From Convolutriloba macropyga (Eukaryota): a DNA stretch of 64,000 nucleotides. Positions 3,001 to 43,700 of the stretch are shown here, in pieces; the stretch's first letter is position 1, and every line of letters starts with the position of its first letter. Both the position numbers and the translations under genes were made by a program. The DNA lies in NCBI RefSeq assembly GCF_964194025.1, contig NC_134477.1:56482001-56546000 (forward strand). Direction: 5' to 3'. Under the pieces are notes generated by a model. It searched no databases. It saw only the letters and a program-made list of their open reading frames with translations, and had not been told where the DNA came from.

Positions 3001-6000
3001 GATGAAAAGGGGGTTTTTTGTCTAAATTACTTAGTGTTTATTCCTGTGTTTTTTTGAATTTCTGTTTAATATATTTTAGGTTCATTTCGGTATGCCTTTT
3101 ATCTGCTTCCCGTTAATTCAACTTTTGCTTATTTCAAGAAGTTCGAAAACTTGCATTTCTCTGACTAATCTCATTCTTCGCCCTAGCCATAGCCATTGGT
3201 TTGCTGTAGTATAATTTTTCCAGGTTTTTTCTTTCGTTTTGTTGACGTGATGCTTATCGTACTGCCCCAGGCTGACCCTTTGATTATAAATAATTTGCTG
3301 ATCTAAATTGTTTTCTGTTTGCCTCACTGTCGTCATGTCCATTGTGCGGCTCCAGGCTGATCATCGATTTGTCACGAAAAAACTGATGAAAAGGGGTTTT
3401 TTGTCTAAATTACTTAGTGTATATTCCTATGTTTTTTTTGAATTTCTGTTTAATATATTTTAGGTTCATTTCGGTATGCCTTTTATCTGCTTCCCGTTAA
3501 TTGAACTTTTGCTTATTTCAAGAAGTTCGAAAACTTGCATTTCTCTGACTAATCTCATTCTTCGCCCTAGCCATAGCCATTGGTTTGCTGTAGTATAATT
3601 TTTCCAGGTTTTGTCTTCCGTTTTGTTGACGTGATGCTTATCGTACTGCACCAGGCTGCCCCTTTGATTATAAAAATTTACTGATCTCATTTGTTTTGTT
3701 CACCTTACTGTCGTCATGTCCATTGTACGGCTCCAGGCTGATCATCAAATTGTCACGAAACAACTGATGAAAAGGGGTTTTTTGTCTAAATTACTTAGTG
3801 TATATTCCTATGTTTTTTTTGAATTTCTGTTTAATATATTTTAGGTTCATTTCGGTATGCCTTTTATCTGCTTCCCGTTAATTGAACTTTTGCTTATTTC
3901 AAGAAGTTCGAAAACTTGCATTTCTCTGACTAATCTCATTCTTCGCCCTAGCCATAGCCATTGGTTTGCTGTAGTATAATTTTTCCAGGTTTTGTCTTCC
4001 GTTTTGTTGACGTGATGCTTATCGTACTGCACCAGGCTGACCCTTTGATTATAAAAATTTACTGATCTCATTTGTTTTGTTTACCTTACTGTCGTCATGT
4101 CCATTGTACGGCTCCAGGCTGATCATCAAATTGTCACGAAACAACTGATGAAAAGGGGTTTTTTTGTCTAAATTACTTAGTGTTTATTCCTGTGTTTTTT
4201 TGAATTTCTGTTTAATATATTTTAGGTTCATTTCGGTATGACTTTTATCTGTTTCCCGTTTATTGGACTTTTGCGTTTTTCAAGAAGTTCGAAAACTTGC
4301 ATTTCTCTGACTAATCTCAATCTTCGCCCTAGCCATTGGTTTGCTGTAGTATAATTTTTCCAGGTTTTGTCTTTCGTTTTGTTGACGTGATGCTTATCGT
4401 ACTGCCCCGGGCTGACCCTTTGATTATAAATAGTTGCTGATCTAAATTGTTTTTTGTTTGCCTCACTGTCGTCATGTCCATTGTGCGGCTCCAGGCTGAT
4501 CATCGATTTGTCACGAAAAAACTGATAAAAAGCATTTTTTTTTAAAGTACTTTTTATATGTGCTTATTTTTTTGTATTTCTTTTTAATAACTTTTATGTT
4601 CATTTCGGTGTGCCTTATATTTGCTCCCCGTTTATTGAACTTTGCGTATTTCAAGAAGTTCGAAAACTTGCATTTCTCTGACTAATCTCATTCTTCGCCC
4701 TAGCCATAGCCATTGGTTTGCTGTAGTATAATTTTTCCAGGTTTTCTCTTTCGTTTTGTTGATGTGATGCTTATCGTACTGCCCCAGGCTGACCCTTTGA
4801 TTATAAAAATTTACTGATCTCATTTGTTTTGTTTACCTTACTGTCGTCATGTCCATTGTACGGCTCCAGGCTGATCATCAAATTGTCACGAAACAACTGA
4901 TGAAAAAGGTTTTTTGTCTAAATTACTTAGTGTTTATTCCTGTGTTTTTTTGAATTTCTGTTTAATATATTTTAGGTTCATTTCGGTATAACTTTTATCT
5001 GCTTGCCGTTTATTGGACTTTTGCGTTTTTCAAGAAGTTCGAAAACTTGCATTTCTCTGACTAATCTCAATCTTCGCCCTAGCCATTGGTTTGCTGTAGT
5101 ATAATTTTTCCAGGTTTTGTCTTTCGTTTTGTTGACGTGATGCTTATCGTACTGCCCCAGGCTGACCCTTTGATTATAAAAATTTACCGATCTCATTTGT
5201 TTTGTTTACCTTACTGTCCTCATGTCCATTGTACGGCTCCAGGCTGATCATCAAATTGTCACGAAACAACTGATGAAAAGGGGTTTTTTTGTCTAAATTA
5301 CTTAGTGTTTATTCCTGTGTTTTTTTGAATTTCTGTTTAATATATTTTAGGTTCATTTCGGTATGACTTTTATCTGTTTCCCGTTTATTGGACTTTTGCG
5401 TTTTTCAAGAAGTTCGAAAACTTGCATTTCTCTGACTAATCTCAATCTTCGCCCTAGCCATTGGTTTGCTGTAGTATAATTTTTCCAGGTTTTGTCTTTC
5501 GTTTTGTTGACGTGATGCTTATCGTACTGCCCCGGGCTGACCCTTTGATTATAAATAGTTGCTGATCTAAATTGTTTTTTGTTTGCCTCACTGTCGTCAT
5601 GTCCATTGTGCGGCTCCAGGCTGATCATCGATTTGTCACGAAAAAACTGATAAAAAGCATTTTTTTTTAAAGTACTTTTTATATGTGCTTATTTTTTTGT
5701 ATTTCTTTTTAATAACTTTTATGTTCATTTCGGTGTGCCTTATATTTGCTCCCCGTTTATTGAACTTTGCGTATTTCAAGAAGTTCGAAAACTTGCATTT
5801 CTCTGACTAATCTCATTCTTCGCCCTAGCCATAGCCATTGGTTTGCTGTAGTATAATTTTTCCAGGTTTTCTCTTTCGTTTTGTTGATGTGATGCTTATC
5901 GTACTGCCCCAGGCTGACCCTTTGATTATAAAAATTTACTGATCTCATTTGTTTTGTTTACCTTACTGTCGTCATGTCCATTGTACGGCTCCAGGCTGAT

Positions 6001-32606: not shown

Positions 32607-32903
32607 TGTCATTCGGGCAATCTTCAGAACGGCCATTACGTCTCAGTCTGCAGAAATCCATTAACTCAGAAATGGTACTGTTTCAACGACAATTCCTGCA
32701 AAGAGATCCAAGTTTCGTCAATTCCTTTGGACACGACTTATTTACTTTTCTACGAATTAGCCAAGTTGGACATCTCTCATTTTATGCCGAGTGTCGAAAT
32801 GAAACAGCCAGTTGTACCTCCAATTGAGTTCAAAAAGTCACCATCGGATTTCATCAAGTCTTTTCCCTCTGATGGTAGTGGGAGTAATTGCTCCCTTATG
32901 TGA
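32607..32903 (+). CDS. USP32: Terminal coding exon of the USP32-like protease (His box and C-terminal CaaX)
   Basis: Acceptor TTTCAG (32601-32606). It reads CHSGNLQNGHYVSVCRNPLTQKWYCFNDNSCKEI...TYLLFYE...GSNCSLM*, in frame with the previous exon. This frame is not in the ORF track. Confidence 0.9.
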   Translation, partial: CHSGNLQNGHYVSVCRNPLTQKWYCFNDNSCKEIQVSSIPLDTTYLLFYELAKLDISHFMPSVEMKQPVVPPIEFKKSPSDFIKSFPSDGSGSNCSLM

Positions 32904-34263
32904 AATTAGTGTTTTCATGCAAAGGTTGTGAAGAAAATGCTATACAAGATACAGACGTACGTGATCTCTATTTGTTCAAAGGAAGTTGTTGTTTTTTTGA
33001 AGATTATACAATCTATGGAAAATGATTTAGATATTTTTAGTAGAAAATAACTTGTAACGGCTAGTTTTAAAAAAGGCTTTTGTGAGGCTATATTAGCAAT
33101 TTTTCATAAAATTGCACTTACTCTACTCAAATGACTCTATTATGAAGGCAAATATTTGTTCACTGAGAAAAGGTAAAACTATATATTCATTTGGTACTAT
33201 AAATCAAGGGACCATTGGTACTGTCCTGTATCTTATCTGCCCCCTTAATACTACTGATGATTACTAGTTTGGAAAAGAGAAATGACGTACGTTTGTAAAT
33301 TAAGCTAGATTACTGTTTTTTGAAGTTCATGGATTCGCCGTGTGGTACCGGCCTCCCCGTGTCGTATTTTTTACCCCAAAATGATGTAAGATTAGGGGGG
33401 TAATCGCGGGAACTTTTACCGGATTCCCCTCAAAACACATCTCTTTGGGGTGTAAGGGGGGGGGGGGGGGTTTCTCGATGGGTACTTCAGAAGGGGGGGT
33501 AATAGGGGATAAAAAGATAAGAATAGGGGGTACTTGAGGGTAGACCGATACAGGAGTGGGGGGGTTAATGAAAAGGGGGGTGAAACGATGCAAAACATTT
33601 TTTTTTCCAAAGTTACTAGAATCTAGCACCGAACCAAACCCGGAAATTTCGTTTCCATATGCATAGTGAAATACCATTTAGCAGTCAGATATATATACTT
33701 ATTTTTCTCTCGGTGTTCGAAAAAGTAGAATTGTGTTCAAAATTTTCCAAAACCCAATTTTCTCTTGAAAATTCCGACTTGTTTAGCACTTTTCCTTTTC
33801 CGACGATTTTTTATGATTTCCAGTTGGTATAATTGGTATAGTCGCGGGAAGTACATAGATCGTGGGAAAAAAGTTTCTCACAAACATCTACAACAACACA
33901 TAATATGGAAGACTTTTTAGAGAATTTTTGGAGCCAATAAGAAGTTAGTTGTTATTGGACCCGTATATTCCAGAACTCTGGTTCTTTTGCAATAGAACTC
34001 ATCTAATATTGATAAATAACTGTTCCTGGACGTCAGGGGGCCAAAAACAAATCAACTTAAAGAATGACGAAAAAGGATGCTCTATTTTGGAATAAAAAGT
34101 AGTGTACTTAAGATACCACGAAAAAGAACGCCTTGCATAGCGAGCCAAACCGGAGAAGAGAGCAGCAGGTAGCGAAGCTAGCAAAAAGGCGCAAAAACCC
34201 AAGATGCGCAAAAAAAACTTGATGACTCCCTTTCTTGATGTATTGATGACTCCCTCTCTTGGT

Positions 34264-37200
34264 TCAGTGTCCATGTGGCAGGGTATCTATATCTTGCTCA
34301 AAAATATATCTTTATCGTTGAAACAGCTCAAGGCGATTTTGTTTATCGTTGTTACAATAATTTGATGGCTCTCTGATGTAATGCCTGTCATTGGCGCCGT
34401 TTCAGTTGTTCTGTTCTTCAAGCAGTTGACAAACTTGTCATGATGCAAACTCTTTTTCACACTTTTTTGCACTCCCTTTGCGCTCTGCTTTGCACCACCC
34501 CGATACTTGATGCTGTACATTTTCGAAAGCAAAAGGACGGCCTCCTCCAATGTTTGTCCTTTAAGCTCGTCCGTCATTGTCAAAGGAACTTTTTTCCTGG
34601 TTGGGTCAAACAATGCGTGATCTGAGGGATAGTCGGACAGGTCGAGGTTTTTAAATTCCTTATGTCCTCTTAGAGGTCATCTTTTTCAACTCGGTAAAGA
34701 AGAGAGTCAGTGTCTTTATACGTGACCAAGATTTTTTTATTCGTATCGCGGTTTCGTTTCATTGTAGTGAAAACCGTACAATGACAACTTGGAAAGATCT
34801 AGAATAGCCGCCCCGACTGGCGTTGGCTTGTCCCAAAATATCTTCTGCTATGACAAGGACACAGAGCACAAATTTTCACTAATAATCTGAAAGGGTTCAT
34901 AGTTTGGTTTGCTGGTAAACTTCATTGCTTCTTGTTCGTTGCTGACGAAATGAACATTCCGTCGGTTTCACTTGTTTTCCATTGTTTTACCAAAACAAGC
35001 ATTTGACATCAGTTTGTAATAAAAAAATTCCAAAAGGACTCTTGGCCTGCTTCCGAATAACTGTTTTTCTGTATATATGATGATAGCCAATTTGACTGTT
35101 TGAATTTGAGTGCCTTGTGAATATTGACAATTTGAAGTCCGTTCTGGTTACTGCAGGTTTTTTATATGGCAAATATAATTCTTTTTATCAAAAGGTGTTT
35201 CTACAAGCTTCGGAACATCCGCATTTTTCTCATTGAATTCAGAACAGTACTCGGACAGCCAATCAGACTGTATCAGAAGTTTTTCTGGAGCTAGTGGTAG
35301 ATCCTGATGGTCGATATGCAACTCAGAGGGATATGCAAGATCAACTTCAACAAAAAGATTGCGTATTCTCCCTCGCAATCGTGAGCCGAAATCAGCTCCA
35401 CAGTCGAGGTATCATCCCATTCAAAAGAACCAATCGGTAACTTTTTCGTCAATGTCCCAGCGTACAGAGAAGTAACATCAAAGAAGGCTCCAAAAACCGA
35501 AGTTTCATTGCTTTTGAAATCAGGAATATAATTGTTGTTTGCTTTGATGTACCGCAAAGATCCGACGCCATTCAACCCACCTCTGATTGCTTTTTCGCTG
35601 AACAACAAGATGTCATAGTGTTGCAGCAATCCTAACTCGACACCAGTCGTCACTAGCATCGCATCCCAACTTAAATTTGGCGCGCTATAAAAGCAAGCAG
35701 GGTCCAACTTGTAGACGTCCAGGCAGACGTCGCGAAACTTTTCAAAAACACTTGCAAGCAAAAGTACGTCAATTTTCAGGTAAACATCGTTATAATCTCC
35801 AAAATTCTTGCAGCCCATCAAATGAAACATCTCATGAGCTCCCTGATACTGTTCCAGAGTAAGATCAATCTTTCCCGAGAGCGTATTGACCCAATCAGGA
35901 CCGTAATCTGGAAAGGGGGCATCGAACTTTTCAAAACTGTCCAAGTACCCATAGGGGAAAAAACTTTCCTCCTAATCTTTTAAAACATTTCCTCAGAATC
36001 AGGAAGGAAATTTTTTTCAAAAGACTAAGGTCTTCGTCAGAGAGTGTTTGTGCAAGTGCGTCTAACCCCGACGCCATAAAGTTCAGACTATCCAGAAACC
36101 GGATATCACTTTTGATGCATTTTGTGAGACCTCTTTTGTCGACATAACTTCCAAGTGGTACACGCACCGAAACCGAGATAAAGGTCTCATCTGTTTTATC
36201 AATTGCTTTTAACTCTTCTCCATCGTAGATTTCCAATTCCTTAATAATATGGTGAGAGTCGTAGCGAGACAAGTTGTGGAAGAATACTGGTAAAAATTTC
36301 ATCACACTGCAATCAAGATTGCATTTCCTGTGAGCAACGCCATGGATATCTCCTGTCAAATGAGAATGATGAACAACTTTGCTCTCTCATTCACAACCAT
36401 CAAAGTCTTCATTGCATATGCAGCAAAGAGCAGTCCAAGATACCAAAAAATTAGCTTTGTCTACCAAATTCTTTGTAAGTTTTCGGAATTTCTGTTGCTC
36501 CTGGTGAGCCCATTTCAACCACTCCCTAAGGGTTTTTCATCATTTCACCAATAAATTGGTCTCCGCGGTAAAAAATTTGTTTCTCAGCTTTTCCACTTCT
36601 TACATCTATCAAAACGGCGCCAAAGCTGCATGGAAACTGATCTTCGATATGCAGGGTGGCAGCACCCATGTTTAGTGTCTAGTCTTCCAGAATAGTCTTT
36701 CAACATTTCAGTTAAAGAGTCTTTTTTGACATCAAATGCCTCCAAGTCAGCGTAAACAACAAAAGGACACCGAATTTGCCGGTTAAAGCCTTTAAACTGC
36801 ATTGTTTCTAGCTTGTTTGGCATTTGGATCAGAAGAGGCTCCTGATCAAGGCTAAGTCGACTTTGCTGCATCAATTTGCCCTTGTCAATACTCTGTAGAC
36901 ACCAACCACAAAACTTTCGGACATTATTTTTGGATCTAGCTGTTCTGTCAGAACGCAGCAGCGTCTTCAGGAGTTGATCGAGATTTTTGATAAGACAATA
37001 ATGAGATTTTTGATCTTCTGACGAAATTAAATGATGTATGTTAGTGATTTGAACACTCCTCTGCTCCGTAAGATAGACAGAAAATATTTCATTCCGGTTA
37101 AGTTCATAGACATTCATTGCTAGATTATTTTTTTCTCAAACGCTGGAATAGCTGAGAGAGGCATTGGCATAATCCTTTGTATTGAAATTCAGGTCATCAA

Positions 37201-37490
37201 GAGTGATTGATAGCTGCTCGGCCGTTGTTGGTTTTTTCGAACGGGCAAAAGCGCGGCCAGAACACAATAGATGGAAAAAAGCTGTCGCTCAAATTTTTGA
37301 TGTTAACGATACTTCTCAAACTCTCCAGTTTCTTTGGAGTCGGAATATATGTTGCAGGTCTCAATGGACTGTATTTATTTTCACGTCAAGACTTCATTCG
37401 ATCAATAACCCAACCGCTACCTCCCGTAGAAAAGATATTAATTTGAGTCATAATTTGGTCAACATGTGACTAATATTCTTCTGAGGTTAA
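34264..37490 (-). pseudogene. Protein-primed family-B DNA polymerase of Polinton type with an inserted endonuclease-VII-like module, multiple frameshifts and stops
   Basis: Motifs in order: GGSGWV, MNVY..HYCLIKNL, PFVVYADLEA (ExoI), HHSHLTG..HGVAHRKCNL (EndoVII-like), FFHNLSRYDSH (ExoII), FLDSLNFM, YLKIDVLLL (ExoIII), FDVTSLY (PolA), KLMSNACFGKTMEN (PolB, ~34975-35015), YKDTDSL (PolC, ~34700-34722), AKGVQK, and C-terminal TLPHGH*. Confidence 0.92.
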
Positions 37491-37763
37491 TTTTCGCGAA
37501 AGTTTCCATTGAGTAGGGTGATTTTGAAAATTTTCAGAGGGGGGACCATTTGGGTGATTTTGGATTTTTTCGAAAATTTTTGGATTTCGAACCTCTAAGT
37601 TTGCTTTAGGGTCTCGGTCCGAGGCATCAAGAAAACTACATCTCAGTGGTCATTTGTCAAGCCGAGTTTGGAAAATGTCCAGCTGCAATCATTTTCCGCC
37701 ATCTTTTTGACTGATTTTTCCCTGCTTTGCTTTACCTCAGTAACGGAGACTGCTTGGCACAGA

Positions 37764-38850
37764 ATGTCTTCCAACATTTCAGTGAAAGAGTCTTTTTTGA
37801 CATCAAATGCCTCCAAGTCAGCGTAAACAACAAAAGGACACCGAATTTGCCGGTTAAAGCCTTTAAACTGCATTGTTTCTAGCTTGTTTGGCATTTGGAT
37901 CAGCAGAGGCTCCTGATCAAGGCAAAGTAGTCTTTGCTGCATCAATTTGCTTGTCAATACTCTGTAGACACCGACCACAAAACTTTGGGACATTATTTTT
38001 GGATCTAGTTGTTCTGTTAGAACGCAGCAGCGTCTTCAGGAGTCGATCGAGATTTTTGATAAGACAATAATGAGATTTTTGATCATCTGACAAAATTAAA
38101 AGATGTATATTAGTGATTTGAACACTCCTCTGCTCCGTAAGATAGACAGAAAATATTTCATTCCCGTTAAGTCCATAGACATTCATTGCTAGATTCTTTT
38201 TTTCTCAAACGCTGGAATAGCTGAGAGAGGCATTGGCATAATCCTTTTTATTGAAATTCAGGTCACCAAAGTGTGATTGATAGCTGCTCGGACGTTGTTG
38301 ATTTTTTCGAACGGGAAAGAGCGCGGCCAGAACACAATAGATGGAAAGCTGTCGCTCAAATTTTTGATGTCAATGATACTTCTTCTCAAACTCTCCAGTT
38401 TCTTTGGAGTCGGAATATATGTTGCAGGTCTCAATGGACTGTATTTATTTTCACGTCAAGACTTCATTGATCAATAACCCAACCACTACCACCCGTAGAA
38501 AAGATATTAATTTGAGTCATAATTTGGTCAACTTGTGAGTAGTATTCTTCTGAGGTCAATTTTCGCGAAACAGTTTCCATTGAGTAGGGTGATTTTGAAC
38601 ATTTTCAGAGGGGGGACCATTTGGGTGACTCTGGATTTTTTTCGAAAATTTTTGGATTTCGAACCTCTAAGTTTGCTTTAGGGTCTCGGTCCGAGACATC
38701 AAGAAAACTACATCTCAGTGGTCATTTGTCAAGCCGAGTTTTGGAAAATGTCCAGCTGCAATCATTTTCCGCCATCTGTTTGACTGATTTTTGAAATGGA
38801 GTTTTCCCTGATTTTGCTTTACCTCAGTAACGTAGAATGCTTGGCACAGA
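37764..38850 (-). repeat. ~1.07-kb direct tandem duplication of 36690-37763 (pPolB N-terminal part plus upstream sequence)
   Basis: CAACATTTCAGT.AAAGAGTCTTTTTTGAC occurs at ~36701 and ~37772, and CATCAAGAAAACTACATCTCAG at ~37625 and ~38697. ORFs 36584-37117 and 37643-38186 share peptide sequence. Confidence 0.92.
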
Positions 38851-39162
38851 GAAGGAACCTCTAACTGAAACTATATTACTGGTATATGTCCAGCTGCAAT
38901 CATTTTCCGCCATCTGTTTGACTGATTTTTGAAATGGAGTTTTCCCTGATTTTGCTTTACCTCAGTAACGTAGAATGCTTGGCACAGAGAAGGAACCTCT
39001 AACTGAAACTATATTACTGGTATATGTCCAGCTGCAATCATTTTCCGCCATCTGTTTGACTGATTTTTGAAATGGAGTTTTCCCTGATTTTGCTTTATCT
39101 CAGTAATGTAGAATGCTTGGTACAGAGAAGGAACCTCTAACTGAAACTATATTACTGGTATA
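38749..39162. repeat. Three near-perfect 138-bp tandem repeats inside the Polinton-like element
   Basis: TCCAGCTGCAATCATTTTCCGCC starts at 38751, 38889 and 39027. Confidence 0.95.
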
Positions 39163-39740
39163 TCTGGAAAAGCGCCCTTCTTTTTTGTGGAAATTGAGTA
39201 TAGTTTTCATACTTTTTTTCATACTTTTCCGTACATTGTAAAAGATTTCTTACTTTTTTTCTCCCATATAGAGGCACTCACCTATCTTTCATATCACTCA
39301 CCTAAACATCGTTGAGCTCAGTTTTTACTGAGATACTTAATCAGAAAATATTCAAGAGTCATGGCTTCATCAGTTTCAGGAATACCGATTCAAATCTTGG
39401 TTAAAGGTTTTGCCCAGGTTTCTGTTTTTTCGATGAAATAAACAGCAAACCCATATATTATGACAATTTTCCCTCGGGATATTAGGGAACATCATTTTTG
39501 CTGCAAAGATAACTAAAATATACGATTGTTCGATCATCGATAAAAGTTTCAGTGGTGGGAAAACTAAGGTGAAGCAAATTTAGTCACAGATAAGAAATGA
39601 CAGCAGGTAAACCAACCAAAAACCGCAAGGCATTAGTCGTTGTACTTTTAATTTCAAAGCAGTTGGTTCAGATTGACTATTAAATATTTGAATTTTCCTA
39701 CGTTTTCCATCCAAATTTTCCATGTAACAGATTTATTCAA

Positions 39741-40358
39741 TATGACACTGAGAGATTGCGATTTTGATCTCGTTTTTCTTTACACAATGAGGAGAAATGG
39801 TAAAATACTCACGGTCTCACAGCCAAGCTGTGACACCATGCATCTGGAGAAACAAGACGAAAGCACCAAAGCTGTAGAACAGCACATTATTGTCCCGAGA
39901 GACATCTTCAACAGAATGACGGATGTCTTCCATCTAACAGATCAAATGGAATATATCCTTGCTCATGGGTTGCTTGATTATGCCGTCCATCAAGCAACCG
40001 TATACAAGTCAAGCGGAATCATGGAAGCAGACAGTGAGAAGTGCAAAATCACTGATGATTACATGCTGACTAACAAATGCTACATGCGGCTTGGTTTTGT
40101 CGTGTACCATCCCGAAACTTTAAAGAGATCATTTTTTTTCACATGAATAAGTTTTGCGAGATATTCCAAGAAAAGTGGGAGAAAAAACAAGGATCAATGA
40201 ACCTCCGGGAGTTCTGTGGATTAATTGCCTATACAAGGAAACATGAACGAATGGAACCAGAATCGAGGCTTGTCAACAGTATTGGGGTTGGTGTTGTAGT
40301 AGAAGAGGTGCCAGCCAAGAAAGTTCGGATTGATGATGAAAACACAGAATCCGACTGA
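39741..40358 (+). pseudogene. Orphan element-borne ORF (~200 aa), apparently split by one frameshift in a T8 run
   Basis: ORFs 39673-40146 and 40077-40358 overlap at ATTTTTTTTC (40131-40140). The composition is protein-like, with a C-terminal PAKKVR and an acidic tail. Confidence 0.5.
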
Positions 40359-40689
40359 TCAAACAAAAAACTTGTATACGAAAACTTGAATAAAAACTCA
40401 AAACTGATAAGCAGAGTAAAAACAAATTGCTTGTGCTCCGGCATGTTTATTTTTACTGGTATATTCGCTGTGAATTTATGAACTCATGCTTTCTTTTGAA
40501 AAGTGCGTGCACAGTGCATTCAAATAGGGCAAAATAGAGTAGCCTAGCATAACATCTAAGCTAGAGGTTTGAAATGAATCAATTGCCAATCGCGCTGCCT
40601 GACATAAGAGTTTAAATCGATAGAATGGCTAATAGCTTAGCCTAACATACGCAAGAGCTTTAAAATGTATCAGACACAAATTTTCGAAA

Positions 40690-40773
40690 GCTCGGTAGGC
40701 GCAGTGGTTACGACCTCTAGCTCAAAGAAAATGTCGGAGGCGTAGGTTCAAATCCCGGTGGGGGCGGAGTTTT
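40690..40773 (+). ncRNA. tRNA-like RNA polymerase III unit inside the Polinton-like element
   Basis: A-box-like TAGGCGCAGTGG (40696-40707), B box GGTTCAAATCC (40745-40755), CCTCT/GGAGG stem, partial GCTC/GGGC closing stem, TTTT at 40770-40773. It is not a canonical cloverleaf. Confidence 0.5.
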
Positions 40774-43700
40774 GGGCTAAACGGGTTTGGTGGAATGTGT
40801 CAAAGTGCGCGACAGACCCCCCCCTTTTCCCACTACTTGTATGTATTGACACAAAAATTTCCACAGAAATTTGATTTGATGAAATCATGAAAGAAAAATT
40901 GAGTTACCCGCGATATAGTTAGCGTCAGGAACTTGAATGGTATTTGGAAAACACAAATTGCACGCCGAAAAACCTATTTGATTGGGCAAAACCACTCTGC
41001 AATTAAAATCTGAGAAAAGACATGTTTTTAAGCATTCAAGCCTTGATAGGCGTTTTCACAAAATCTTTTCAGGACATGACAAACAATTGCTAGAAGAGCA
41101 GTTTAGAATGAAAAAATCTTGTATTAATCATTAATTTTTGTGCCCAATTGAAAGAAAAATTCAAAATTATTACACATTGAGTGCTTTTTTCATACGATCA
41201 TAGAAAAATTGTACAGAGGTGTTAAGTTTGGTAAAAAGAAAAACTTGGTTTCTATGCCTTGGGGCCTATTTTGCTCTTTGCATTATAGAACACTTTAAAG
41301 AGTTTTTATCTTGTCGAAAAATGCCTCTGATGCACTATTGCCCTCACTTGTATATTACCCCCCCCCCCCTCACTACCCATTTCCCCCTTATCTTACATCG
41401 TTTTACCCCCTATTCTTACATCTTTTTGGGGATAAAACCTAAAACTTCCCCCCATTACTCCCTGATCGTACAGTTTGGGGGGTAATTTTCACGGTCGTTT
41501 CAGTCGAGTAATAACTCGAAAGCTGAAAAGGTCAAATTTTCTGTTCATCGAAAGCAGTAATGTGATATAATTTTGAAGTACTTGTGTAATGTATGGTTTT
41601 TTAAAACTGTCAAATATGTGTCAGATGTTAGCAATGGTAATCAATAAAATTGGATCAAAAAATTTGGGTCAGTGAAATATTTGACAATAATTGCACAGCT
41701 CTTATGAGCGGTTATAGAGTTGCAATTCTTTCATTCAAATTTCAAAGCGCCGATAACGCTATTCAGTTCAATGACCAGGATAGAATTTTGGTTCTCGGAA
41801 CTGGCAATTACTATTACCCCAATTATTATCTCACTAGGTTGAAATTTGACTATTTAAGGAAGAATTAAGCCAAATTTATCGAATTAATAGCCAAAATTTT
41901 TCAACTGAACCGAGCTAATTTGCTGATTCAATAAAAATGGTTTCGTGTGTGATGCTAAATGATTGTTATAGTATTTGGTTGATCAAATCTTGTCAGAAAG
42001 TTATCAAATATCGAATATAAAATCTTGGTCTTTTGAGTAGATGTTTTGTCTGACTATACAAATGGTTGTTGAAAACATTTGAGTTATAATTTTAGATTTA
42101 GATCTTACTTGTTTTGTGATTTTCGTGGCGGCTGTCCGTTCTTAATTGGTCGATTTCTTAAACTCAATCTTAGATTTCGTGTTCAAAATCAAATTCTATA
42201 ATTATGCTGCTACCCCTGTAGTCCACAAAAACCTCAGTGCAACTGGAAAAAATGGTTTCAAATTTTGCGGGGTCATCCTTCGTTAATCGATTTTTCGCTT
42301 TTTCGTCCTCAAAAACGAGATAAAGAGGTAAAGAGCGGTGGGCATTCAGTTCTCTTAGAGCCGTACGGCTCACTAGTCATATATACACGATGATAATTGA
42401 GTTAGAAATTCAATTTTTGGGTGCCATTTGTATTGAATGGAAAGGACAGATTTCAATTTTTAGGTCGCTTAATTTTTATAATAATTTTTTTCGCAAACCA
42501 AGACTTTAAAATCTCCATAATTTGAAACCGCTTTTATCAGTTGCCTCAAACCTTGAATGCTAAATCAAATTGTATATTTTCCATGAAATTTTATTTTGTT
42601 ACTCGCTTCCAAAATTGTGAATTCTCAATCCTAAATTCGATAATGTATTCTTTTTCTTTTCAATCTGCTGTAATTTTGCAGTTTTGCTGTCTGCATAACG
42701 TTGTGACGATGTAAACTACTTGAATATGTGCTGAAATGATTTGTTATTATATTATTATTACTATTGTAGTTGTTGCAATTACCTGTAGATGAGAGCTTGC
42801 ATCAATCGAAACTTGTTCTATATTTTGTCTGTTGATAATCAAATCAATCAATTGTTGAATCAATTTCCCATTTAGATTGAAGCTATGCCTAAAGTCAGTT
42901 TTTCAAAAGTTAAAAGAACCACTAGAGCAATTTGCGCACAATGTTTCAAACCCGCTTATCCATATTCCGGGCTTGATTGCTTACCAAATGAAGCACAGAT
43001 AAGAACTTTGTATATAATTCAGAGGAATTCATGCGTTGTCATTCAAAACTTGGGTGCTCAAATCCCTTGCCAGCGTTTTTTCCACTAGAACGGACAAAAA
43101 TTGAACCGAGCAAAACTTAAAATCGAAAAAAATGAGTCAATCTGATACAACTTAAGCAGAAAAAATAATTGCAGAAAGCAAGGCTTGTAAACACCAAATT
43201 TTGCCAATTGACGAAAATCAGATTCTGAATTAATGTTTTATCCTGTTCAAATCAAAGTTCAACAACGAACGATTTTTTTGGTTTATCGATATCTAGCTTG
43301 GGCGAACTCGATTTAATTGCAACTATATTTTGTGTTCTCAATTTACAGGTAATAAGAGGATGCAGAAGTCTTTTTTTGTGATGTGAGACATGCATGCTCG
43401 ACAAATTAATGATCCAAATCTCATAAATGACCTAAAACCCTCGTGAATGGAACAATAAATGATCTCACGCACACAAATTCATCTGAAAAATTCGCCCGTT
43501 GACTTCATGATGGGTGATCAGATCGCAACATAAATCGAAGAAGGCGACGAAAAAAAACTATCAGCATAGTTCCTGAATTACAACCCAGAGAAATGGAGAT
43601 TAATCTGATCACTGATTTTTACAGTAAAAACAGCCGCCTTTTGCATTCAACCAAGCATACGCCAAAAATAAACAGTACAGCAGAAAAAGAATTCCTTTCT

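What the first reader, a model, noticed from the sequence alone, without database searches (positions are those of the whole stretch)
33350..41530. Compact ~8-kb Polinton-like element with pPolB, an orphan ORF and a Pol III RNA, but no integrase or capsid module
Seen: a near-complete but broken pPolB with an EndoVII-like module, a divergently oriented orphan ORF, a tRNA-like unit and related G/C-rich ends in inverted orientation. Known: autonomous Polintons are about 15-25 kb, with a retroviral-like integrase, packaging ATPase, protease and capsid genes. None was recognised here. Inference: this is either a deletion derivative or a minimal linear-plasmid/satellite-like replicon that integrated ~450 bp after the USP32 stop.
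Basis: partly seen in the sequence, partly recalled or inferred. Interest (0 to 1): 0.7.

Follow-up and report, generated by a model that had tools for sequence, protein, structure and literature searches.

The report
Truncated Polinton nested in host transposon
This is the broken remaining third of an ordinary virus-like Polinton transposon, which likely lost its integrase and capsid half by deletion after landing inside a smaller host transposon whose ends were mistaken for its own; the family's ends do carry conserved tRNA-type promoter boxes that may make small RNAs.

Summary
Not a minimal replicon. The 8-kb span is two nested elements. Inside (34238-40837) lies one end of a canonical Polinton: a broken pPolB, a family accessory ORF and a true ...ACTACT terminus at 40837. 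Six of its seven closest genomic relatives (83-93% identical) run on past 34238 into protease, capsid, integrase and ATPase genes; measured spans are 15-18 kb, with 6-bp target duplications. About 9.6 kb was lost here, the cut falls inside pPolB, and no other copy shares the junction. The G/C-rich inverted ends (33356, 41494) belong to a separate host non-autonomous DNA transposon with a 2-bp target duplication; its interior flanks the Polinton collinearly on both sides. About 1.35 kb of the length is internal duplication. The 'tRNA-like unit' is not a tRNA, but it is real: A-box, B-box and a T4 run are kept at both ends of this family while the DNA between them diverged (box identity 0.83-0.89 against 0.29-0.38). 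Transcription is untested. I found no paper describing such units; this scan noted a B-box in a Polinton end repeat of another genome.

The parts
33354..33355 (.). left 2-bp target duplication (TC) of the outer host transposon
   Evidence: same dinucleotide at 41495-41496; the family makes 2-bp duplications in 5 of 8 scorable copies
33356..33593 (+). outer host transposon: left terminal repeat (CCCGTG...) and G/C-rich subterminal repeats
   Evidence: 78-90% matches to at least 39 other places; same family forms free 350-1270 bp elements with both ends
33592..34222 (+). outer host transposon: left part of the AT-rich interior
   Evidence: 70% over 605 columns to L005, score 406 against shuffled maximum 116
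34219..34237 (+). 19-bp near-copy of Polinton sequence 34243-34261 at the deletion junction (templated-insertion-like scar)
   Evidence: sequence directly; junction bridged by short-read contigs in 4 of 4 runs of one sample
34238..37513 (-). broken pPolB gene with EndoVII-like insert; cut at both ends
   Evidence: 90-93% DNA identity to five relatives, all stopping at 34238 or 34421 (stretch edge); stops and frame changes; Pfam
37522..37763 (-). remnant of the family's 55-66-bp repeat array and upstream DNA; about 1.2 kb of relatives' sequence missing at 37513/37522
   Evidence: the 37513/37522 joint is bridged by one contig in 1 of 4 runs
37766..38850 (-). tandem duplicate of 36695-37763
   Evidence: 93.7% identical to the first copy; relatives hold it once
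38748..39163 (.). 3 x 138-bp tandem array
39742..40358 (+). family accessory ORF (the 'orphan'), frameshifted in this copy; weak PC4/PUR-like fold hint
   Evidence: homologues beside pPolB in 14 of 15 pPolB loci fetched; low-confidence model, pLDDT 53.5
40690..40773 (+). Pol III type-2-promoter-like unit: A-box 40697-40707 (one mismatch to the published consensus), B-box 40745-40755, T4 run 40770-40773
   Evidence: consensus from PMC7279448
40793..40837 (+). Polinton terminal inverted repeat core ending in ACTACT (the surviving true end)
   Evidence: relatives' homology ends at 40837; 42-51-bp inverted repeats with AGTAGT/ACTACT ends in relatives
40838..41342 (+). outer host transposon: right part of the interior
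   Evidence: 71% over 480 columns to L005, downstream of and collinear with the left part; score 290 against shuffled maximum 114; all 39 other matches are a non-Polinton repeat, 38 of them starting at 40838
41355..41494 (+). outer host transposon: right subterminal repeats and terminal repeat (...CACGG, one base shorter than the family end)
41495..41496 (.). right 2-bp target duplication (TC)

Best explanation
A single-copy, broken remnant (34238-40837) of a canonical 15-18 kb Polinton family sits inside a host non-autonomous DNA transposon (33356-41494); the full Polinton likely integrated there with its own integrase and likely lost about 9.6 kb, including protease, capsid, integrase, ATPase genes and one end, by a later deletion. 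Shown: the nesting, the one true Polinton end, the relatives' full gene set, the unique junction, the broken pPolB. Inferred order of events: (1) the host transposon inserted 453 bp after the USP gene's stop; (2) a full Polinton inserted in its interior; (3) a deletion with a short templated scar removed the far two thirds and some host DNA; (4) decay: a 1.2-kb internal deletion, a 1.07-kb duplication, a 138-bp array, many frameshifts. The order of 3 and 4 is not known. The remnant cannot replicate or integrate on its own. The A/B-box unit and the accessory ORF are normal parts of the family's end, not additions.
For: Six of the seven closest relatives carry PRO, MCP, a penton-position ORF, rve integrase and A32 ATPase in one fixed order; the seventh has PRO and MCP and then stops (Pfam). 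11 of 15 pPolB loci fetched have the whole set. The MCP model (pLDDT 88) matches double-jelly-roll capsids at E about 1e-15. At least 46 of 62 top pPolB places have an MCP tail-to-tail within 7 kb. Spans 15.3, 16.1, 18.2 kb with AGTAGT/ACTACT-type ends; 6-bp target duplications 6/6, 5/6, 5/6, 5/6. None of 13 other matches crosses 34237/8; none of 46 others crosses 40837/8. Both flanks align in order and orientation to one host repeat, L005. Both junctions are bridged by short-read contigs.
Against: The left Polinton end and its target duplication are gone, so insertion of a full element here is inferred and not seen. The host-repeat matches are only about 70%, and no near-identical empty copy with both G/C ends and this interior was found. 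Genome searches score only the best candidates (40 of 917, 40 of 376), so a second composite copy could be missed; one search scored all 14 of its candidates. 16 of 62 pPolB places had no MCP in the cut list, and one pPolB locus had no family gene in 20 kb (C12:46.49 Mb).
Confidence: 0.93

Rival explanations
1. A host TIR transposon captured a Polinton fragment (Pack-type capture by gap repair), and the 8.1-kb composite moved or can move as one unit under the host transposase.
For: The outer ends and a 2-bp target duplication are both present, so passive movement is structurally possible; the left junction has a templated-looking scar.
Against: The right junction is exactly the Polinton terminus, as an integrase would leave it; no second copy of either junction; the interior is about 30% diverged from its relatives, so the outer element looks old.
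Confidence: 0.05
2. A minimal pPolB-only linear replicon or satellite: an element that replicates with its own pPolB and borrows capsid and integrase from helpers.
For: No integrase, capsid, protease or ATPase in the window. Deleted Polinton derivatives do occur in this genome, e.g. a 5.4-kb copy with both ends but no pPolB.
Against: Only one Polinton end; the inverted ends belong to another family; pPolB is cut at both ends and riddled with stops; junction unique; relatives are full-length.
Confidence: 0.01
3. Assembly artefact: a chimeric join of a Polinton end with unrelated repeats.
For: Repeat-rich, homopolymer-rich sequence; the four runs are one sample, probably the assembled one.
Against: Short-read contigs span 32900-34482 and 40746-41758 with 0 substitutions (records 9 and 15); the two copies of the duplication differ by 6%, too much for a collapse artefact.
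Confidence: 0.01

Closest known systems
Animal Polintons/Mavericks (Barreat and Katzourakis 2021, PMC8097293; passages read)
   Same: (AGT)2//(ACT)2 end motif, 6-bp target duplication, pPolB, PRO, MCP, integrase, ATPase in the family; that paper reports that the vast majority of copies are degraded (134 intact; 2,166 without discernible TIRs).
   Different: This copy keeps one end and about a third of the element. The family's inverted repeat proper is short (42-51 bp; 133 bp in one copy) and is followed by A/B-box units; the word tRNA does not occur in that paper's main text.
Beta-class adintoviruses / group 1 Polintons (Starrett et al. 2021, PMC8502044; section 7 and passages read)
   Same: Adenain, rve integrase, packaging ATPase, hexon-like MCP, and a pPolB that scores below Pfam's PF03175 cut-off or not at all, as described for the divergent Beta class.
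   Different: Beta assignment is inferred from weak Pfam scores; no tree with named references was built. Supplementary gene maps were not seen.
Polinton pPolBs with inserted homing endonucleases (Krupovic et al. 2024, PMC11071308; Jeong et al. 2023, 10.1101/2023.08.22.554363; passages read)
   Same: An HNH/EndoVII-type nuclease inside pPolB is already described.
   Different: Nothing new here beyond another instance.
Type-2 Pol III genes: tRNA, adenovirus VA RNA, EBER (consensus boxes from PMC7279448, passages read)
   Same: A-box, B-box 39-42 bp later and a T4 run 17-18 bp after the B-box core, in all 13 aligned ends of this family apart from one A-box mismatch in the window copy.
   Different: No cloverleaf call, window unit folds no better than shuffles (z -0.44), units sit 77-98 bp from the termini and point outward; no transcript seen.
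Non-autonomous TIR transposons / MITEs, EnSpm(CMC)-like (EnSpm likeness recalled; PMC12730594 passages read)
   Same: Terminal and subterminal repeats, 2-bp target duplication, no coding capacity.
   Different: Ends are CCC..GGG, whereas that paper gives CA..TG in most cases for the CMCT clade; no transposase was identified, so the superfamily is left open.

Membership tests
Polinton/Maverick (the window copy itself) | protein-primed B-family DNA polymerase | tested here: met
   present but broken and cut at both ends
Polinton/Maverick (the window copy itself) | retroviral-like integrase, packaging ATPase, protease, capsid genes | tested here: not met
   no tblastn hit in the window with the family's own proteins; hence filed as a remnant of a Polinton, not an intact member
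Polinton/Maverick (the window copy itself) | inverted repeats with AGT/ACT motif at both ends | tested here: not met
   one end only, at 40837
Polinton/Maverick (the parent family in this genome) | rve integrase | tested here: met
   PF00665 E 1.3e-7 to 3e-3, just under the curated cut-off
Polinton/Maverick (the parent family in this genome) | A32-type packaging ATPase and adenoviral-type protease | tested here: met
   PF04665 E 1e-8; PF00770 E 1.9e-4, both above cut-off
Polinton/Maverick (the parent family in this genome) | double-jelly-roll major capsid protein | tested here: met
   model of a sister-family MCP, pLDDT 88, Foldseek E about 1e-15 to iridovirus, Sputnik, PBCV-1 capsids; 75% identical to the close family's MCP piece
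Polinton/Maverick (the parent family in this genome) | minor capsid (penton) protein | not tested
   a conserved 346-366 aa ORF lies between MCP and integrase; no Pfam hit, not folded; label by position only
Polinton/Maverick (the parent family in this genome) | AGT/ACT ends, 6-bp target duplication, 15-25 kb | tested here: met
   spans 15.3, 16.1, 18.2, 26.6 kb; duplications 6/6, 5/6, 5/6, 5/6; inverted repeats were detected in 4 of 15 loci tested
Minimal linear pPolB replicon (plasmid- or satellite-like) | own inverted repeats at both ends | tested here: not met
   the inverted G/C ends belong to a host repeat family
Minimal linear pPolB replicon (plasmid- or satellite-like) | open pPolB and several copies with the same layout | tested here: not met
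tRNA gene | cloverleaf recognised by ARAGORN or Rfam | tested here: not met
   0 genes in the window and in 40 of 40 loci at default threshold; no Rfam tRNA match
Type-2 RNA polymerase III gene | A-box, B-box at proper spacing, T-run terminator | tested here: met
   window A-box has one mismatch
Type-2 RNA polymerase III gene | transcript or Pol III/TFIIIC occupancy | not testable with these tools
   needs small-RNA or ChIP data
EnSpm/CMC non-autonomous transposon (outer element) | terminal plus subterminal repeats and 2-3 bp target duplication | tested here: met
   5 of 8 scorable copies (10 of 18 had no recognisable far end within 1.5 kb), plus L053 and the window
EnSpm/CMC non-autonomous transposon (outer element) | CA..TG termini (most members, PMC12730594) | tested here: not met
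   ends are CCC..GGG; not filed under this superfamily
EnSpm/CMC non-autonomous transposon (outer element) | autonomous partner with a CMC transposase and the same ends | not tested
   no search made

The most novel reading that the evidence does not exclude
This animal Polinton family encodes its own small Pol III RNAs: one outward-pointing unit at each terminus and a third, inward hairpin unit with a 20-bp terminal stem, the Polinton counterpart of adenovirus VA RNAs, or else TFIIIC-bound insulators that shield the integrated element. The boxes and terminator spacing stayed fixed while the two ends diverged, and a sister family at about 60% pPolB identity keeps looser boxes at the same place.
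Probability: 0.35. Interest if true: 0.6.

Novelty: new member of a known kind. Interest (0 to 1): 0.22.

Why it matters
The element as proposed does not exist: it is a degraded Polinton copy, the commonest state of these elements, nested in a host repeat. It is a clean example of how nesting fakes a 'compact replicon with inverted ends'. The part worth keeping is the conserved Pol III promoter layout at both ends of the parent family. If transcribed, it would give Polintons, the inferred ancestors of adenoviruses, a VA-RNA-like feature and a direct test of whether such RNAs predate adenoviruses; if only bound by TFIIIC, it would point to built-in insulators.

Tried and rejected
AGTAGT at 34098 as the left Polinton end: rejected, no target duplication, and relatives' homology stops at 34238. 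The A/B unit as a free SINE: rejected, 17 of 17 hits lie next to a Polinton end. The unit as a tRNA: relaxed ARAGORN gave only noise-level calls, 11-25 per 10 kb. Folding of the window unit: z -0.44. Covariation for the third hairpin unit: 0 of 27 pairs with a change on both sides in 10 sequences, so the stem is not supported by covariation. Near-identical empty outer element: not found in 12 stretches or 18 end-motif loci; upstream DNA of 11 right-flank hits did not align to the left flank above shuffles, only L005 did. Viral contigs: no relative of the pPolB. Orphan ORF: no Pfam hit, one database homologue at 96%, Atlas gave no answer, fold searches inconclusive: best Foldseek E 4e-3 to PURA, VIA Z 5.5 or less for PUR/PC4 rows, below unrelated rows at Z 6. 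Expression: no RNA holder listed. The duplication joint at 37763/37766 had no contig cover. A pPolB tree was not built: no named references were at hand and gene content had settled the question. Literature: searches (listings only) and the word tRNA in four Polinton papers showed no description of Pol III units at Polinton ends; the one mention is tRNA genes flagged in a figure of other MELD viruses. Repbase, Dfam, the 2006 founding papers and all supplements were not seen and may hold such a note.
Full report
Setting. The window is G000:C10:56482001-56546000 of a 1.18-Gb animal genome. A UCH-family gene ends at 32903 (PF00443, E 7e-12). The flagged stretch follows.

What is in the stretch. 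Minus-strand ORF pieces hit DNA_pol_B_2 weakly (E 6e-5, 2e-4). Against a relative's pPolB the window aligns in ten pieces over three frames with stops in nine of them; alignment starts at about residue 192 of the N-terminal ORF and DNA homology stops about 525 bp before the relative's stop codon. 36695-37763 is duplicated at 37766-38850 (93.7% identity) and a 138-bp unit is repeated three times, so about 1.35 kb of the length is duplication. An ORF on the plus strand at 39742-40358 is split over two frames. ARAGORN finds no tRNA and Rfam nothing near a family threshold.

The family is canonical. A pPolB piece found 3914 candidates in the genome, 150 scored, many in open frames above 1000 residues. 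I fetched 15 pPolB loci: 8 chosen for similarity to the window and 7 for long open frames. With the family's own ORFs as queries, 11 of 15 carry protease, MCP, a penton-position ORF, integrase and ATPase in one order; one is cut by its contig end before the ATPase, one stops after MCP, one has only a protease piece, one has no family gene in 20 kb. Among the seven closest (83-93% DNA identity) six are complete. Pfam confirms rve, Pox_A32 and Peptidase_C5. The MCP of a sister family folds at pLDDT 88 and matches double-jelly-roll capsids at E about 1e-15; it is 75% identical to the close family's MCP. An MCP search gave 4172 candidates, as many as pPolB. Of 62 of the top 64 pPolB places (two tandem repeats of one place left out), 46 have an MCP tail-to-tail within 7 kb; this is a lower bound, since two misses have MCP and the window is itself a miss. 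Inverted repeats were detected in 4 of 15 loci, giving spans of 15.3, 16.1, 18.2 and 26.6 kb; several distant loci were not fetched out to both ends. Ends read AGTAGT...ACTACT, with 6-bp target duplications matching 6/6, 5/6, 5/6 and 5/6, as published for Mavericks (PMC8097293, passages). The window itself gave no hit for any of these genes.

Where the Polinton really starts and stops. Relatives' homology ends at 40837, on ...CCCACTACT. On the other side it ends at 34238, inside pPolB's C-terminal tail; in the 15.3-kb relative about 9.6 kb lies between that point and the far end. A search with 34060-34420 scored all 14 candidates: besides the window, 11 begin at or after 34238, 2 match only the host-repeat part, none crosses the junction. 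None of 46 other matches crosses 40837/40838 (40 of 917 candidates scored). At the left junction 34219-34237 nearly repeats 34243-34261, a scar of the kind that microhomology-mediated repair leaves (mechanism from established knowledge, inferred here). Short-read contigs bridge both junctions (32900-34482 and 40746-41758 in run X2, others in X1, X3, X4); the four runs are one sample, so this excludes a mis-join but is not independent biology.

What the G/C-rich ends are. 33356-33467 matches 39 other places at 69-90%. These are small elements of 350-1270 bp that begin CCCGTG and end CACGGG. Of 18 loci with the end motif, 8 had a recognisable far end within 1.5 kb and 5 of those 8 have a 2-bp target duplication; L053 is a sixth. 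The window has TC on both sides (33354-33355, 41495-41496), its right end being one base short. Between these ends and the Polinton lies AT-rich DNA that matches another host repeat, L005, on both sides, in order and orientation: 33592-34222 at 70%, 40838-41342 at 71%, scores 406 and 290 against shuffled maxima 116 and 114. So the outer 8.1 kb is a host non-autonomous transposon interrupted by the Polinton. Against this: no close empty copy with both these ends and this interior was found, L005 has different terminal repeats, and 11 other right-flank hits show no left-flank homology upstream. The outer DNA could therefore itself be two nested repeats; that does not change the conclusion. The superfamily is left open.

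The accessory ORF. It has homologues next to pPolB in 14 of 15 pPolB loci, at 22-88% identity, so it is a regular family gene. One database homologue. A 14-row model shows two beta-beta-beta-beta-alpha repeats at low confidence (pLDDT 53.5); the best Foldseek row is human PURA (E 4e-3, TM 0.2) and PUR/PC4 chains recur at Z 4.6-5.5 among unrelated rows. A PC4/PUR-like single-strand-binding role would suit protein-primed replication but is only a hint.

The Pol III-type unit. All 17 genomic matches lie beside a Polinton end (16 with the subterminal motif, 1 with the terminus only), so it is not a free SINE. The far end of full-length copies carries a second unit. In an alignment of 15 ends, six near ends against five far ends are 0.89 identical in the A-box, 0.83 in the B-box and 0.87 in the terminal repeat, but 0.29 upstream, 0.38 between the boxes and 0.34 after the B-box (the two homogenised ends of C3b were left out; regions were chosen from the motifs). 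Box spacing is 39-42 bp and a T4 run follows 18 bp after the B-box core in 12 of 13 ends, 17 bp in one. The boxes fit the published type-2 consensus (PMC7279448, passages); the window's A-box has one mismatch. A family at about 60% pPolB identity keeps a clear A-box and a looser B-box at the same place. There is no cloverleaf and no folding signal. Most likely these are promoter boxes kept under selection, for transcription of an 85-nt RNA or for TFIIIC binding; I cannot separate the two. A third, inward unit near the far end (absent from the window) has an intact-looking 20-bp stem and a T run but no two-sided compensatory change. An unreviewed note of this scan reports a B-box in a Polinton end repeat of another genome and reads it as a protein-binding site; it is a lead, not support, and it lowers my odds for an RNA product.

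Comparison with the known. Degraded copies are the rule for Mavericks (PMC8097293); nucleases inserted in pPolB are described (PMC11071308; 10.1101/2023.08.22.554363); weak PF03175 scores fit the Beta class (PMC8502044 section 7; inferred). Three searches (listings only) and word look-ups in four papers found no account of Pol III units at Polinton ends; Repbase, the founding papers and supplements were not seen.

Verdict. The compact replicon is not real; this is a single truncated Polinton inside a host transposon. Interest 0.22, most of it owed to the terminal promoter boxes of the parent family.

Noticed in passing
L105:1513-1624 (minus), and 10 other hits: A third B-box unit about 297 bp inside the family's far end, pointing inward, with a 20-bp terminal stem and a T run; VA-RNA-like in outline, no compensatory changes in 10 sequences.
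   Followed up: partly
L067:3099-4310, L064:5392-6618: The integrase ORFs of sister families carry a 2A/StopGo-like peptide motif near the N terminus (motif label recalled).
   Followed up: no
L022:738-6183 (G000:C1128): A 5.4-kb internally deleted Polinton with both ends, ATPase, one unknown ORF and the accessory ORF, but no pPolB, integrase or capsid: a possible non-autonomous derivative.
   Followed up: partly
L073:7550-10000 and L074:61-1551 (G000:C12:46.49 Mb): A long open pPolB (47% to the family) with no protease, capsid, integrase or ATPase hit in the 20 kb fetched; a better candidate for a pPolB-only element than the window, or a truncated copy.
   Followed up: no
L030:1-4100, L013:3550-4710: The 5' region of pPolB holds a 55-66-bp repeat array of very variable length, several kb in one copy.
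   Followed up: no
G000 as a whole: About 3900-4200 first-look candidates each for pPolB and MCP: a very large Polinton load in several families.
   Followed up: partly
L098 and L099 (G000:C5:53.556 Mb; C2220:41.4 kb): Two diverged copies share the same flanking DNA, so they are alleles or a duplication of one insertion and not independent.
   Followed up: no
L093, L095 (G000:C15:12.72 Mb): Two tandem short pieces in which far-end-like sequence abuts the near-end unit at the A-box, suggesting recombination between the two ends' boxes.
   Followed up: no
window 1-28000: Uniform strong T skew (AT skew about -0.35) over 28 kb, probably a long tandem array; not examined.
   Followed up: no
window 42239-42544: A 29-bp inverted repeat pair 248 bp apart, probably another small host transposon.
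   Followed up: no
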